Position numbers: made by a program. Shown piece after piece: positions 42,601 through 48,600 of a stretch of 64,000 nucleotides of DNA. Origin of the DNA: Gemmatimonas sp. GTDB lineage: Bacteria; Gemmatimonadota; Gemmatimonadetes; Gemmatimonadales; Gemmatimonadaceae. How positions within the stretch are numbered: the stretch's first letter is position 1; each line of letters opens with the position of its first letter. The stretch lies in contig OZ257156.1 in NCBI GenBank assembly GCA_965279375.1, positions 128,001 through 192,000 on the forward strand, given 5' to 3'.

Positions 42601-45600
42601 CTCGCGCTCGTGGTGCCCCCGTCCAACGGACTCCCCTCGGGAGAACCGTCGGCGGTCGGCATGTCCGCGGCCCGCCTCTCCACGATCGATCGGGTCGTGC
42701 AGCGTGGGCTCGACGCCGGCGGCTACCCGGGCGCGTCGGTCGTGGTGGGACGCAAAGGGTTCAGCGTCTGGTCCCGCGGTTTCGGGGCGCTCGACTGGAG
42801 CGGCAAGAACGCGGTCACGGCCAACAACAGCATCTACGACCTCGCCTCGCTGACCAAAGTCGTCGGCACCACCACGGCGATCATGGTCCTCTATGACCAG
42901 GGCAAGATCGATCTCGACGCCCCGGTCTCGCGCTACCTCCCCTCCTTCACCGGAGGGCTCAAGGACCAGGTCACGGTCCGCCACCTGCTCACGCACCGCG
43001 CCGGCCTTCCCGCCGGCCGAGAGCTCTGGCGCATCGCCAATACACCGGCTGAAGCGCGCGAAGCGGTGCTTAACGCCCCGATCCAGTGCACGCCGGGCGT
43101 GTGCTACGAATACTCCGATCTGGGCGCGGACATCCTCGGCTTCGTCGCCGAAGCTGCCTCCGGCGTCACGCTCGACGTGTTCCTGCGGCGCAACGTGTTC
43201 GAGAAGCTGGGGATGACCGACACGCACTACCGCCTCGACGCCATCGACATCGAGCGGACGGCCCCCACGGAAATCGCTCCGCCGCGTGGCTATCCGCTGC
43301 GCGGTGAGGTCCACGACGAGAATGCGTGGGCGCTCGGCGGGATAGCCGGCCACGCGGGCTTGTTCAGCACCGCGTCGGATCTGTCCGTTTTCGCGCAAAT
43401 GCTGCTGGACGGGGGCACCTACAACGGCGTCCGCGTCATCGCCGATTCCACGGTCAGCCTGTTCACCAAGCGCGCCGCCGGACACCGCGCGCTTGGCTGG
43501 GATACCTGCGTCGGCGGTGCCGGCTGCGGGCAGTACCTCTCGGAGCGCGCCTACGGGCACACCGGATTTACGGGCACGTCGCTCTGGATCGATCCGGATC
43601 GGCACATGTTCGTCATCCTGCTGACGAACCGGGTGCACGCGGCCCGCGCACGGCGTCCCTCCAAGGTCATCGCTGACGTCCGCAACGACCTCGCCGACGC
43701 GGCCGTCCTCGCCGTCATGGACGACCCCAACGGCGTGTTGGCCATGCCGGCCAGCTTCCGCGCCGACAAGGCGGAAGACTGGAACCGTCCGTTGCGTTCG
43801 AGTCGCGCCCGCAGCTCCGCCGCTCGTCGGCGCGCGGCCGCGGCCAGGCGTGCCAAATCCGGCAAGGCCTCCGCCAAGTCGTCATCGAAGTCATCTTCGA
43901 AGTCATCTTCGAAGTCGTCCGCCAAGCCCGCCTCGGCGAGCTCTGCCAGAGGCTCGAAGTCGTCCAAGGCATCCGCCAGCAAGTCGACGAAGGGCAAGTC
44001 GTCGGCGAAGTCTTCGAGCAAGTCGACATCCAAGTCGACGGCCAGGAAGAAGCCGCCCACCAAGTCATCGCGGTCAGGCAAGACGCGCTGAAGTTGCGGT
44101 CGCCTGCTATGTTTCGGCCATGGAGGAGCTCATGACCGACGAAACCATGTCCGCCCAAGGCGAGACCACGGACTCAATCCCGACAGATGCGATCCCGGTG
44201 GCTGAGGGTGGTGCTATCTCGGCCGATCAAGCGCGCCTCGTGCTTCGTCGCGTGAAAGATCCGGAGCTCAACCTCAACATCGTCGATCTCGGGCTCGTCT
44301 ACGACATTACCGTCGAAGGCACCGCCGTGCGTGTCGACATGAGCCTCACCTCGCCCGGCTGCCCGTCAGGCCCGGAGATCATGGGAGAGGCCGAGCAGCA
44401 GTTGAAGACCATCCCGGGTATCGGCGAAGTGACCATGAATCTCATCTGGTCGCCGCCCTGGACACCGGAGCGCATCGAGCCGCGCGTGCGCGCGTACATG
44501 GGGTTCTAGCGCTCCGCGTGTCGGCCGGCGAGTGCATCCATCAGGTCGAACTCCTCGTTCGATCGCAGATCCACGGCCTTCGCGCGACGCAGCTCAGTGA
44601 ATGACGATTGTCCGAAATCGCTGTTGATGAGGATGGCGCCAACGAGGACGAGATAGCGCGCATTGTTGTACGTGGTCTTGGATGCGAGTAGGTCGATACG
44701 CGCCGAGATCGCCTCGTTCATCACTTCCGTGGCTTCCTTGAGCGGATGCGTCGCCGCCAGAACGCGCGCACGTTCCCGTAGCAGAATCTGCTCGATGGTG
44801 TTCTGCTGATAGTCCAGCGTGTTCACATCGTCGGGAATGATGTGTCCCGACTGGAGCTTCGCTAACGCTGCCCGACATGCTCCGCAACAGCCGCTCGGCT
44901 TGTGCTGACCCTCGCGGAGGATCTGCCCGAGATTCCCTTGCGTGTCGATCCCAATGTGCGGCGCGTGATAAATGAACACCGCCCCATCGTCGGGCACGTG
45001 CCCGGCAAATGCGCCCATTCCCGTGAGTCCTGTAAACGGGAATCCGTCGAGGCCGCCCATTTTGAAAGGCCCCAGCATCTCGTAGGCGCGCTTGGGATAC
45101 TCGATGCTGTTCACGTCATCGCTGCAGATGCTGTCCGCCAGCATCACTCGATTGGGCGGCAGCCCAAAGCGCGTCTTGAACAGGTCCAGCAGCCGATCCA
45201 CGGATTCCATCGTGGTCATGGCGTTCGGATAGTGTCGGCGAACCGTCGCGGCAAAATCGTCTGTAGTCATGATCACATCAGAATGTTGTTGTGAGGCAGC
45301 AGCGGAGCGGGAATGTCCGCTTCGCCCAACATCTCTCGCAAGTCGATCTCGATCGTGCGTGTCATCGCTGTAATCGGCACATCATTGACGTTGCCCTCGA
45401 ACGGATTCTCGGTCGCTTCGCCGATACGCTCCATCATCAGGAACACCCACGCAACCAGCGCCGAAAAGGGAATGGTGAGCCATGCGAAGCCAGCGCCAAG
45501 TTTGGCGAACTCACTGAGCATCCCGAGCGGTACCAGCCCGTTGAACAACCGGATGAACATCAGGTTGACCGTCGCGTACTGACGCGGATACGGAAAGTTC

Positions 45601-48600
45601 TTGATGCGTTCGCACTTCCCTTGCTGCGTGTAGAGATCCACGAGCAGGTTCTGCATCTCCACCTGTCGCAATTCCGACAGCAGTCCGCGCGCATGCAGTT
45701 CGCGGAGGTCGCTCGACTGAAGCGCGATCAGCTGCGTCGCCACGTTGGACTTTCCCAGTACCCGTGACTTCTCGTCGGCACTGATCAGTCCCGTCAGCGC
45801 GTCGGCGAGTGTGGCGCCATCCTGCTCCTCGACAGAAAACTTGACTCTGTATTCGCGGTTCTGCTCCTTCTGCATGTTCTCCCACCCTCGTGGCGCGCGC
45901 AGCTGAAAGCGCAACGCGTGCAACCACGCGAGGTGTCGGTGCATCAACCGCGTGTGCGCCGCGTTGAGGTCGGCTGATCTGTTCGCGCTCTCGGCGCTCT
46001 CAACGGCGACGAAATCCATGGCCATGATGCCCCACGACCGGCTGGTGTTGACGATCGCACCGTAGATCTGGCGAGCCTCCCACAAGCGATTGTAGCTGGC
46101 GTTGTTCTTGAAGCCGACCATGAATGCGACGGCCGTTCCGACAACGGCGATCGGCACCCACGGGATCGCGAGCCAGCTCCAGCCGAGCGCTTGATGGAGC
46201 GCCGTGGGTATCGCTCCCACGAGCAGGTAGAACAGAATGTCGCGACGAGTCCAGTAGAGGACTTCCCGAAGTGTGAATCGGCGACCGGTATGCATTGCGG
46301 AGCGTGTTGATCGTGCAGTTGGGGACGCGGCAGCGCGTCACGCGCCGGTCGAGGCGCGCGCTGCCAATGGATGACCAAGCGCGAGGATCACGAATGCCAG
46401 CACTACCACCCAACTTTCCCCAAGCAATCCCTTCCAATCGTGCAGGTGTGCGAACTGCACCAACAGAAACATGATGACGCCGAGGTTCATCCAACTGCCC
46501 CAAACAAAGGTCTTGGGGAAGAACATCATCACGCACCCAGCAAACCCGATCACACCAAGCAGTTGTCGAAGGGGAGCGCTTGTTCCGAATGGCTCGAAGA
46601 ACTTCACCATCGCTTCGCTGCCGGTGACCATTCCCCAGCCAGCGCGGAGGCTCATCCACGCCATCAACAGCATCAGTACGCCACTCAGCGCCCGCAGCAC
46701 CATGTTCATTTCCATCGCAAGATCGGGTTGCGGGGCTCGGCGCCGAGCCCCGGGTTTCTCTTCCCTGGGCCGCGCTGCTCGCCCGGCGAAATTGTACTGC
46801 CGTGGCTGCGAGCTCGGCGGCGGCGCCCGTTGCCGAACGCGAGTTCTGCGCGACCGCCGCTTCACCGGGTACGTCGACTGGACGTTGGCGCGTCCAGGTC
46901 GGCTGCCGTCGCTGCGCCCGCCGTCGACCGCGATTCCCGTGCGGTTATCGGATACGCTGCTGACCGATTGTTGCCATTATCATCGGCCGCAAGGAGATCA
47001 TTGCGGCAGAGGCAACGGCGTTGGTGTGAACGGAAGCGGACGAGCAGGCACCGCGCACACGCCGCGCAGCGTCGTTCCGGCAATTGATGGACGCCGCGTT
47101 TTACGGCGGGGTCATTTGGCTGGGCCTTCGAGCAGCTTCAGTCTGGCCTTTGCGTCCGCATTGTCTGGATTGAGGCGAAGCGCGCGTCGGTACATCGCTG
47201 CGGCCTGATCGCGGCGGCCCGCTGCCTCCAACATCTCGCCATAGCTCTCGCTCAGATTGTCGTCGGACGGCCAGAGCGCGATCGCCGCGCGGAACGTCGA
47301 CAGAGCATCGGTCACGCGCCCGTTCTCGGAAAAATGATATCCGAGGTTGTTCAGATCATTCGCGCTCAAGCTATAGCTCGTTGTGTCGTCCTTGTTCTGT
47401 AGCAGGGCAACGAAGGCCGCATCCTCCCCCTCGGCCGCGAGCGTGCGAGCGTAAATACGCGTCAGCGATCGAGGCGTAGACATGGGCGCGCGACCATTGA
47501 GCATCCGCAATGCCGATAGCCCCATCCTGTAGACATTCTCACTCTCTGTATTGTCGAAAATGACGACCGTCTGATCCGAGTCGAGATTCCGCATGAAGAT
47601 CGTGACGCACCCTGGCATGCCGCCGGCGTGCCACGCGATGCGGCCTTCCGAGCGGTCGCGGAAGATGAACCAGCCGAGCCCGAGGTCCGCCTCGCCCATG
47701 CCGCCGAAGTTCAGCCAGACGTGGACCGGCGTTCCGTCGGCCAGCTTCTGCGGCGTGACCGCCGAGTCCAGCGTCGCCGGCTTGAGCAAGCGGCCATCCC
47801 TGAGGGCCCGATCGAATCGCAGCATATCGCCGGTCGTGCTGACGATACCACCGTTGCCGTAGGTACGACCGTTGTAGTAGCTCTTCGCGCCGTCCAGGCG
47901 CGTGCGTTGGTTCGAAAACCGCAGCGGATACGCGTAGTTCTGCGCAAAAAGCGGCGTATCGGGACGGTTGATCAGCGCGCTCTTGAGATAGGTCTGTCGC
48001 ATACCGGCGGGGCGCAGGATGCGGCTTGCGAGATAGGCGTCGAACCGCTGGCCGGACCGCACCTCCACCAAACGCGCCAGCAACTGATAGCCGAGATTAC
48101 TGTACCACCATTTCTCGCCTTGCTTGAGCGCAGGTGACACGCCCGACGCCGCGATCGCTGGAACGAGATCGCGCATTTCCATCGGTCGACCGAGCGTCTG
48201 TGCATAGCTCGGCGCGATTTCCTGCTCCGACATTCCGGACGAATGCGAAAGCAATTGCCGAACCGTGACGCCCTTGTAGGGAAACTCCGGGACGTAACGC
48301 GCCAGCGGTGCGTCGAGAGCGATCGACCCGCGCTCGACCAGTTGGAGGATCGCCACGGCGGTGAAGAGCTTGCCGACCGACGCCATTTCGAACTCGGTAT
48401 CCGCGGCGTTCGGTCGCTGATTCTCGAAATCGGCATAACCGAACGACCGGGCGTAGATCACGCGCCCCTTCTCCGCGACAAGCACGTTGCCGTTTAAGCC
48501 ACCGCTGCTCGCGTGCGCCCCAAAGAAGGCGTCAAGCTTCGCTGCGCGGTCCTGCGCAGCGGCCGGGGATGGCAGAAGAATCAACAGCGCGGCGGCCAGC

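What a model noticed while it worked through the whole genome (the two positions that open the first line are those of the whole stretch)
44506..46703. Bacterial operon pairing a bestrophin-type anion channel with an LCIB-type (theta) carbonic anhydrase
g00159 (173273-174295) is a bestrophin-family channel. g00158 (172506-173270) is an LCIB/theta-class carbonic anhydrase with the Cys-His-Cys zinc site and no signal peptide. They are separated by 2 nt on the minus strand, behind a small unknown gene (g00160). The same two families are the bicarbonate channel and the carbonic anhydrase of the CO2-concentrating mechanisms of green algae and diatoms. Here they form one operon, and that pairing is conserved across at least six bacterial phyla, mostly heterotrophs. 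I read it as a two-part inorganic-carbon module: channel-mediated HCO3- flux coupled to cytoplasmic CO2/HCO3- interconversion. I found no description of it in bacteria. In this genome [...]
Evidence so far: Families: Pfam LCIB_C_CA on g00158 and Bestrophin_2 on g00159 (tables). Structures: g00158 matches solved LCIB-family structures 6kfs (2e-28), PtLCIB4 5b5y (2.5e-26) and CrLCIB 5k5w. The motifs SICSDDV, APHIG and GCCGA align with the matching PtLCIB4 motifs; that these hold the zinc ligands is recalled. g00159 matches the bacterial bestrophin structure 4wd7 (2e-22; call 115; its Klebsiella origin is recalled). Ready table neighbours.tsv: the two families lie within 2 genes of each other in 252 of the 749 species genomes that have both; 1,536 bacteria have LCIB_C_CA. 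Own check: 80 loci were fetched around relatives of g00158 (54-67% identical; Gemmatimonadota, Bacteroidota, Acidobacteriota, N [...]
(Added by a program. Inside this text positions count along the whole contig: contig position 128,001 is position 1 of the stretch shown here. "Call 12" and the like, gene names such as g00115 and contig names such as C1 are that model's own, and its searches are not shown. The text may have been shortened before it was handed on; [...] marks where a part breaks off. The agent that wrote the report below was given it as the finding of a first reader that could run no searches.)

Follow-up and report, generated by a model that had tools for sequence, protein, structure and literature searches.

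The report
Bacterial bestrophin–carbonic anhydrase operon
Many non-autotrophic bacteria keep a bestrophin ion-channel gene joined to an algal-type carbonic anhydrase gene, probably to turn CO2 into bicarbonate, let the bicarbonate out and keep the proton, which gives bacterial bestrophins a testable job.

Summary
The operon is real. A bestrophin (45273-46295) and an LCIB/theta-type carbonic anhydrase (CA; 44506-45270, Cys-His-Cys site intact) lie 2 nt apart in a lineage-specific insertion. In 66 of 80 related genome loci the two genes are adjacent, in both gene orders. I confirm five phyla, not six.

New here: (1) a canonical beta-CA fills the same slot behind related bestrophins (10 of 80 loci); (2) the upstream slot often holds a Na+/H+ antiporter or a K+-channel-like gene; (3) the channel has the neck phenylalanine that makes the Klebsiella channel Cl- selective; (4) channel partners were swapped while the link was kept.

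An open anion channel under an inward proton-motive force exports bicarbonate. I therefore favour CO2 hydration plus HCO3- efflux, a net proton load for pH/ion homeostasis (0.45), over carbon uptake (0.2).

Limits: most close bestrophins have no adjacent CA; there is no assay; the channel is far from the one plant bestrophin compared. Ten paper searches found no description. This scan noted the pairing before on other DNA (e1-4924792, e1-1539334).

The parts
45273..46295 (-). Bestrophin-family channel, 340 aa
   Evidence: PF25539 E 1.4e-47; 4wd7 E 2e-22; model pLDDT 93.8, TM 0.72 to KpBest
46110..46136 (-). Neck residues T54/F58/F62, matching KpBest I62/I66/F70; the middle Phe is the anion-type residue
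   Evidence: Alignment, read with the KpBest numbering of PMC8496536; conservation
44506..45270 (-). LCIB/theta-type carbonic anhydrase, 254 aa, no signal peptide; C49, D51, H105, R119, C129
   Evidence: PF18599 E 1.6e-63; model pLDDT 94.5, TM 0.81 to 6kfs and PtLCIB4; these residues are present in 75 of 75 homologues and invariant in 58 diverse ones
46338..46715 (-). Small DoxX-like membrane protein, 125 aa, three hydrophobic segments, 42 nt before the bestrophin; occasional accessory gene
   Evidence: PF13564 E 0.04, below cut-off; 68% identical to a homologue upstream of the bestrophin in L100; homologues in 8 of 160 loci
46731..46752 (.). Perfect GC-rich hairpin just before the DoxX-like gene; terminator-like on the + strand; role unknown
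   Evidence: two such sites found against 3.3 expected by chance, so not significant
47112..48614 (-). Serine hydrolase (beta-lactamase fold) with TPR tail; same insertion, not part of the module
   Evidence: PF00144 E 1.9e-60; below every NCBIfam cut-off shown; a homologue in none of the 80 CA loci (one search lists one, L135, among the bestrophin loci)
44506..48614 (.). About 4.1 kb insertion between a sufT-like gene (44138-44509, +) and lspA (from 48740, -)
   Evidence: lspA follows the sufT-like gene within 1.5 kb in 20 of 24 congener loci; GC 0.58-0.60 for the three module genes against 0.654 for the genome

Best explanation
The operon is a CO2-hydration and bicarbonate-efflux unit for cytoplasmic pH and ion homeostasis. 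Step 1 (inferred from fold and site): the cytoplasmic zinc enzyme hydrates respiratory or incoming CO2 to HCO3- and H+. Step 2 (inferred from the neck residue and family properties): the inner-membrane bestrophin passes HCO3-. Step 3 (follows from thermodynamics if steps 1-2 hold): the inside-negative potential drives HCO3- out, so the proton stays and the net effect is gated proton loading, useful at alkaline pH or under bicarbonate load. Step 4 (inferred from neighbours): a K+-type channel or a CPA1 cation/H+ antiporter balances charge; K+ plus HCO3- efflux equals K+/H+ exchange. Shown: genes, folds, motifs, linkage, partner swaps. Not shown: catalysis, ion selectivity, direction, phenotype.
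For: Linkage in 66 of 80 loci, in both orders. One CA clade of 94 rows (SH-aLRT 99) holds all 81 linked cases; 0 of 42 rows outside it are linked within the flanks held. A beta-CA replaces the LCIB-type CA 4-18 nt behind related bestrophins in 10 of 80 loci. Directly upstream of the bestrophin in that sample: TIGR00831 Na+/H+ antiporter in 17 of 80 and TMEM175 in 4 of 80. An Ion_trans_2 channel-like gene lies upstream in 16 of 80 CA loci. A cation transporter accompanies 10 of 19 CA-linked against 12 of 61 other bestrophins (Fisher p 0.008, kin not independent). Neck Phe in 73 of 73 LCIB-linked and 9 of 9 beta-CA-linked channels; I66F makes KpBest Cl- selective, and human bestrophins pass HCO3- (PMC8496536 passages). 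With assumed pH and potential values, efflux is favoured 7- to 1550-fold in all 7 cases with an inward pmf. 10 of 10 pair-bearing genomes tested have a separate beta-CA. This genome has SulP+beta-CA and SbtAB+beta-CA loci that could cover uptake. The direction matches the Chlamydomonas model, stromal LCIB/C to BST1-3 to lumen (PMC6708349 passages).
Against: No assay. 61 of 80 close bestrophins have no adjacent CA, including all 28 others in the window channel's own clade, 6 of them on short contigs. In an even genome draw, 4 of 23 window-like bestrophins had an adjacent CA (one is the centre genome, one is broken) against 1 of 21 in a control subfamily; p 0.35. The neck Phe is also in 60 of 61 unlinked members, so it marks the subfamily and not the pairing. 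Other bacterial LCIB clades lie beside uptake-type carriers: SbtA in 9 of 27 loci. Purified Chlamydomonas LCIB-family proteins showed no CA activity (PMC5876011 passage). I found no habitat or expression evidence for an alkaline role (0 papers). An ungated channel would be an uncoupler, so gating must be assumed.
Confidence: 0.45

Rival explanations
1. Inorganic-carbon acquisition. The channel admits HCO3- at very high external pH or when the membrane is depolarised, and the CA supplies carboxylases; in this genome it could feed form II Rubisco.
For: A sister LCIB clade lies divergent from SbtA-SbtB in 9 of 27 loci. This genome has form II Rubisco, phosphoribulokinase and two reaction-centre genes, and no BMC match. 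At external pH 10.5 a 7-fold draw-down of internal carbon would reverse the flux.
Against: A passive anion channel cannot accumulate HCO3- against an inward pmf. 41 of 46 pair-bearing genomes have no Rubisco-family match. SbtA and SulP loci already exist here. The operon is 436 kb from the Rubisco gene.
Confidence: 0.2
2. The bestrophin is a cation channel like KpBest. It gives a Na+/K+ re-entry path for the antiporter; the CA only buffers pH and no bicarbonate crosses the channel.
For: The only characterised bacterial bestrophin cited in the review is a Na+ channel (PMC8496536). Antiporter-bestrophin pairs without a CA occur in 8 of 17 antiporter loci.
Against: The neck has the Phe that switches KpBest to Cl-. 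A second cation channel beside a K+-channel gene would be redundant. Two unrelated CA families sit within 20 nt of the channel.
Confidence: 0.15
3. The LCIB-type protein is not mainly a CO2 hydrator. It is a regulatory or CO2-sensing subunit that gates the channel, or it acts on a related substrate such as COS, CS2 or a cyanate by-product.
For: Purified algal LCIB/LCIC were inactive. LCIB-like domains are fused to response-regulator domains in three Nitrospirota loci. Beta-CA folds include COS/CS2 hydrolases (recalled).
Against: Replacement by a canonical beta-CA that passes the NCBIfam carbonate dehydratase cut-off nearly but not fully (202 bits against 251) and Pfam Pro_CA fully. The window protein has Ser after the first Cys as in wild-type PtLCIB4; that PtLCIB4 is active is recalled. 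No cyanase or sulfur gene recurs in the neighbourhood clusters.
Confidence: 0.12
4. Co-inheritance without functional coupling: a cassette that formed once and travels together.
For: The linked CAs form one clade. The pair is patchy: 2 of 61 relatives and 2 of 301 phylum genomes, counting this genome. Near neighbours agree in 58 of 72 pairs.
Against: Gene order flips in 11 of 66. Deep relationships of the two genes do not match (Mantel rho 0.06, p 0.2). The window's channel is rejected as kin of its CA's neighbours' channels (AU p 0.0003), so channels were replaced while the link was kept. A second CA family fills the same slot.
Confidence: 0.08

Closest known systems
Chlamydomonas LCIB/LCIC with thylakoid BST1-3
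   Same: Same two protein families; reported to interact; the model has CO2 hydrated on the stromal side and HCO3- moved by the bestrophin to the lumen, the same direction as cytoplasm to periplasm (PMC6708349 passages).
   Different: Unlinked nuclear genes in a phototroph. A luminal CA and Rubisco complete the cycle. The window channel is far from plant-type 7ek1, so shared ancestry of the pairing is not shown.
Diatom PtBST1 with luminal theta-CA1
   Same: Bestrophin plus theta-type CA handling HCO3- (10.1101/2023.09.20.558591 passages).
   Different: The CA is on the far (luminal) side and dehydrates HCO3-; here the CA has no export signal.
Bacterial transporter-CA operons (SulP-beta-CA; SbtA/SbtB-beta-CA)
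   Same: A membrane HCO3- route beside a cytoplasmic CA; both types occur in this genome.
   Different: Those are secondary carriers that can concentrate bicarbonate (recalled); this is a channel, with a theta-type CA.
Klebsiella bestrophin KpBest (4wd7)
   Same: Fold, TM 0.72; conserved signature stretches.
   Different: KpBest has an I-I-F neck and conducts Na+; this subfamily has T-F-F and about 40 more residues.

Membership tests
LCIB / theta carbonic anhydrase (PF18599) | Profile match above cut-off over the whole domain | tested here: met
   214 bits against cut-off 25; profile positions 2-222 of 223
LCIB / theta carbonic anhydrase (PF18599) | LCIB fold | tested here: met
   TM 0.81 to 6kfs and 5b5y; about 0.4 to canonical beta-CAs
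LCIB / theta carbonic anhydrase (PF18599) | Cys-His-Cys zinc triad with conserved Asp and Arg | tested here: met
   C49, D51, H105, R119, C129 invariant; H105 aligns with PtLCIB4 H88. Which of C128/C129 binds zinc is inferred from conservation
LCIB / theta carbonic anhydrase (PF18599) | Zinc binding and CO2 hydration activity | not testable with these tools
   Needs an assay; some purified family members were inactive
Bestrophin channels (PF25539) | Profile match and bestrophin fold | tested here: met
   163 bits against cut-off 27; TM 0.72 to 4wd7
Bestrophin channels (PF25539) | Three-residue neck on TM2 with anion-type middle Phe | tested here: met
   T54/F58/F62; the first position is Thr, not the Ile of the characterised channels
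Bestrophin channels (PF25539) | Pentamer that conducts anions including HCO3- | not testable with these tools
   Only a monomer was modelled; needs electrophysiology
Algal CO2-concentrating mechanism (LCIB/C + BST + luminal CA + Rubisco) | Channel belongs to the thylakoid BST/VCCN clade | tested here: inconclusive
Algal CO2-concentrating mechanism (LCIB/C + BST + luminal CA + Rubisco) | Hosts fix CO2 with Rubisco in a compartment | tested here: not met
   41 of 46 pair-bearing genomes have no Rubisco-family match; this genome has form II Rubisco but no BMC match
Bacterial active bicarbonate uptake (SbtA, SulP/BicA) | Ion-coupled secondary carrier in the operon | tested here: not met
   The membrane gene matches only Bestrophin_2 above cut-off; SbtA and SulP genes lie elsewhere

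The most novel reading that the evidence does not exclude
A widespread bacterial bestrophin subfamily is a true HCO3- channel. With a CA (theta or beta) and a K+ channel or antiporter it builds a proton importer from passive parts: CO2 in, KHCO3 out, H+ kept. This would be a two- to three-gene prokaryotic counterpart of the algal LCIB-to-BST step, with the same direction, and a minimal system for testing how LCIB feeds a bestrophin.
Probability: 0.33. Interest if true: 0.8.

Novelty: new variant of a known kind. Interest (0 to 1): 0.62.

Why it matters
Bacterial bestrophins serve as structural models for human channels, but the papers read here give them no physiological substrate. The linkage names bicarbonate as a candidate and picks a subfamily with an anion-type neck for assay. 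It also gives bacterial LCIB proteins a role, and offers a small, genetically tractable pair (for example in Pedobacter, Runella, Emticicia or Flavobacterium isolates) for a question open in algal CO2-concentrating research: how LCIB and bestrophin are coupled.

Tried and rejected
Complex prediction of two bestrophin chains with one CA gave no answer (score 0.00); it says nothing for or against binding. No CA relative was found in the plasmid or phage collections, so there is no sign of carriage on those elements. The promoter scan found 0 sigma-70-like sites and terminator-like sites at chance level. A search for residues that separate CA-linked from unlinked bestrophins gave only clade-level differences. 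NCBIfam had no model for the three genes. A cyanobacterial occurrence was rejected; the cyanobacterial phylum itself was therefore not sampled. A Calvin-cycle-specific role was rejected as the conserved function. The claim that CA linkage is special to the T-F-F subfamily was not supported (4 of 23 against 1 of 21). Jin et al. 2016 (PMC5187666) is not held, so PtLCIB4 activity is recalled. Fusion proteins were not searched with the 'longer' option. No supplements were read; the supplementary trees of the LCIB and BST papers may list bacterial homologues.
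Full report
OBSERVATION. The minus strand carries three genes in a row: a DoxX-like gene (46715-46338), a bestrophin (46295-45273) and an LCIB-family gene (45270-44506), with gaps of 42 and 2 nt. Pfam assigns Bestrophin_2 (E 1.4e-47) and LCIB_C_CA (E 1.6e-63); the small gene matches DoxX_2 below cut-off. AlphaFold2 models are confident (pLDDT 94.5 and 93.8) and match 6kfs/PtLCIB4 at TM 0.81 and KpBest at TM 0.72. C49, D51, H105, R119 and C129 are present in 75 of 75 homologues, and none has a hydrophobic N-terminus, so the enzyme is cytoplasmic by inference.

LOCAL HISTORY. The unit is a recent arrival. PF18599 was found in 2 of 61 relatives and 2 of 301 phylum genomes, each count including this genome; both other carriers have the bestrophin next to it. 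In 20 of 24 congener loci lspA follows the sufT-like gene within 1.5 kb, whereas here about 4.1 kb lie between them. The three genes have GC 0.58-0.60 against 0.654 for the genome.

LINKAGE FROM THE CA SIDE. A pattern scan found 397 CA relatives in the species genomes; only the best 80 were returned. 66 of 80 have an adjacent same-strand bestrophin, 55 before and 11 after the CA. A 67th (L016, Nitrospira) is inferred across a contig break. Titles give Bacteroidota, Gemmatimonadota, Acidobacteriota, Myxococcota and Nitrospirota; the cyanobacterial title of L055 is not supported. In a tree of 136 bacterial LCIB proteins (quick method; duplicates left out, and L229 did not enter), one clade of 94 rows holds all 81 linked cases and 13 unlinked ones; none of the 42 rows outside it is linked within 1.5 kb. 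Those outer clades have other membrane partners: SbtA in 9 of 27 Bacteroidota loci, and DASS, CitMHS/ArsB or Mrp-type genes in Nitrospirota (16 of 151 genomes have the family).

LINKAGE FROM THE CHANNEL SIDE. The best 80 of 235 metagenome relatives of the bestrophin were fetched; they include near-duplicates, and 71 have at least 400 nt downstream. Nine are followed by the LCIB-type CA and ten by a canonical beta-CA at 4-18 nt; 61 have no adjacent CA. The beta-CA cases fall in two places on the tree (a clade of 8, and L159; L147 was left out as a split gene), so they are about two events. Directly upstream lie a TIGR00831 Na+/H+ antiporter (17 of 80), TMEM175 (4) or an Ion_trans_2 gene (1); 31 of 80 have a CA or a cation transporter, 49 have neither. 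Among the CA loci the Ion_trans_2 gene occurs in 16 of 80. An even draw of 201 Bacteroidota genomes was less favourable: 4 of 23 window-like bestrophins had an adjacent CA (one from the centre genome, one broken) against 1 of 21 in a control subfamily, p 0.35. The dependence is therefore one-sided.

PARTNER SWAPS. Across 72 pairs, pairwise identities of the two genes do not correlate (Mantel rho 0.06, p 0.2), although 58 of 72 share a near neighbour. CAs that are 82-85% identical sit beside channels that are 35-49% identical. The window's channel nests among 28 relatives without an adjacent CA, and an AU test rejects grouping it with the channels of its CA's neighbours (p 0.0003; 38 rows, simple model, group chosen from the CA tree). 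The link was kept while channels were replaced, which argues for selection and against mere co-travel.

SELECTIVITY CLUE. KpBest is a Na+ channel with neck I62/I66/F70, and I66F makes it favour Cl-; human bestrophins pass HCO3- (PMC8496536, passages). Reading the 4wd7 alignment with a three-residue offset, which also places R172, D179 and I180 correctly, the window neck is T54/F58/F62. The middle Phe is in 73 of 73 LCIB-linked, 9 of 9 beta-CA-linked and 60 of 61 unlinked subfamily members (one gapped row each in the first and last group left out). It is Ile or Leu in 6 of 10 other paralogues. This supports anion conduction by the subfamily but does not prove it; the Thr at the first position is untested.

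MECHANISM. If CO2 crosses the membrane freely, a cytoplasmic CA and an HCO3- channel form a loop whose net effect is proton entry, driven by the proton-motive force. With assumed pH and potential values and external CO2/HCO3- at equilibrium, efflux is favoured 7- to 1550-fold in the 7 cases with an inward force and reverses in the one case without it. The cell would lose base and keep acid. That fits the cation/proton transporters in the upstream slot: K+ and HCO3- leaving together equal K+/H+ exchange. It also matches the direction proposed in Chlamydomonas, where LCIB/C interact with BST1 and BST3, hydrate CO2 in the stroma, and the bestrophins move HCO3- into the lumen (PMC6708349, passages). 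Housekeeping CA need is already met: 10 of 10 pair-bearing genomes tested have a beta-CA. Of 46 pair-bearing genomes, 41 have no Rubisco-family match and 5 have weak ones that I read as Rubisco-like proteins, without a further test. This genome is an exception, with form II Rubisco, phosphoribulokinase and reaction-centre genes, but it also has SulP-CA and SbtAB-CA loci. I give the efflux/pH model 0.45, uptake 0.2, a cation channel 0.15, a non-catalytic or other-substrate role 0.12 and no coupling 0.08. Catalysis, selectivity, gating, direction and phenotype are all untested, and purified algal LCIB proteins were inactive (PMC5876011, passage); the title of Kasili et al. 2023 says LCIB works as a CA in complementation (seen only as a reference entry).

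KNOWN OR NEW. Both proteins are members of known families. The unit works like known bacterial transporter-CA operons and like the algal LCIB-BST step, but it is a member of neither: it has no secondary carrier and mostly no Rubisco. Ten searches of the paper library showed no description of a bacterial bestrophin-CA operon; four returned no paper at all. Most hits were seen as listings only; passages were read from PMC7215798, PMC6708349, PMC8496536, 10.1101/2023.09.20.558591, PMC7027989, PMC5876011 and PMC13275658. The library lacks most subscription journals and no supplements were read. Earlier notes of this scan report the same pairing on other DNA (e1-4924792, e1-1539334) and the DASS and Mrp contexts; I had reached these readings before the look-up, and they are not independent evidence.

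VERDICT. A real, conserved and apparently undescribed operon: a new variant of the transporter-plus-CA theme. Interest 0.62. It makes the substrate of bacterial bestrophins and the LCIB-bestrophin coupling directly testable, but the mechanism rests on gene context, one neck residue and thermodynamics.

Noticed in passing
G000:C1 about 608500-612000 (L256:10550-14020) and C1:3117089-3118746: This genome, whose closest named matches are Gemmatimonadaceae, encodes form II Rubisco and phosphoribulokinase (both above NCBIfam cut-offs) and two reaction-centre genes, with no BMC match: a candidate photoautotroph or mixotroph.
   Followed up: partly
G000:C1:535830-538011 and C1:4813899-4815991: Two more transporter-CA units in the same genome: SulP with beta-CA, and SbtA-SbtB-beta-CA followed by a LysR-like gene.
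   Followed up: partly
L187, L189, L191, L192, L195, L203, L205, L206, L207: A second bacterial LCIB clade (about 230 aa) lies divergent from SbtA, with SbtB behind it where the flank reaches and a LysR gene between in two loci.
   Followed up: partly
L228:1192-2367, L229, L230: An LCIB-like domain fused to a response-regulator receiver in three Nitrospirota genomes, two of them behind other receiver-like genes; a possible CO2/bicarbonate sensor. Only L228 was scanned with Pfam.
   Followed up: no
L216-L221; L224, L226, L227: Nitrospirota LCIB genes sit between DASS and CitMHS/ArsB-type carriers, or directly behind an Mrp/NuoL-type membrane subunit.
   Followed up: partly
L033:4178-4852 and 15 other loci: A 222-230 aa Ion_trans_2 channel-like gene with a K+-filter-like TSIGFG motif and no evident large cytoplasmic domain, directly upstream of the pair in Bacteroidota; kept beside the CA in L066 and L071, where the bestrophin is missing.
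   Followed up: partly
L262 (G236:C1:5364125-5368108): DoxX-like, K+-channel-like and bestrophin genes followed by a broken LCIB gene (two internal stops): the module decaying from the CA end.
   Followed up: no
L075:3095-5854; L017:4369-5955: Where the bestrophin is missing, the CA follows an H+-pyrophosphatase gene with an OmpA-like tail (L075) or a CPA1 antiporter (L017).
   Followed up: no
window 44138-48740; L232, L235, L241, L243, L246: The gap between the sufT-like gene and lspA carries different inserts in several congeners, so it looks like an insertion hotspot.
   Followed up: partly
L298:1465-3052: A distant bestrophin (T-V-F neck) directly followed by a beta-CA, so CA pairing also occurs outside the subfamily studied.
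   Followed up: partly
L055: The record title says Vulcanococcus, but its genome draws the Bacteroidota set and both genes nest among Bacteroidota; the title is probably wrong.
   Followed up: yes
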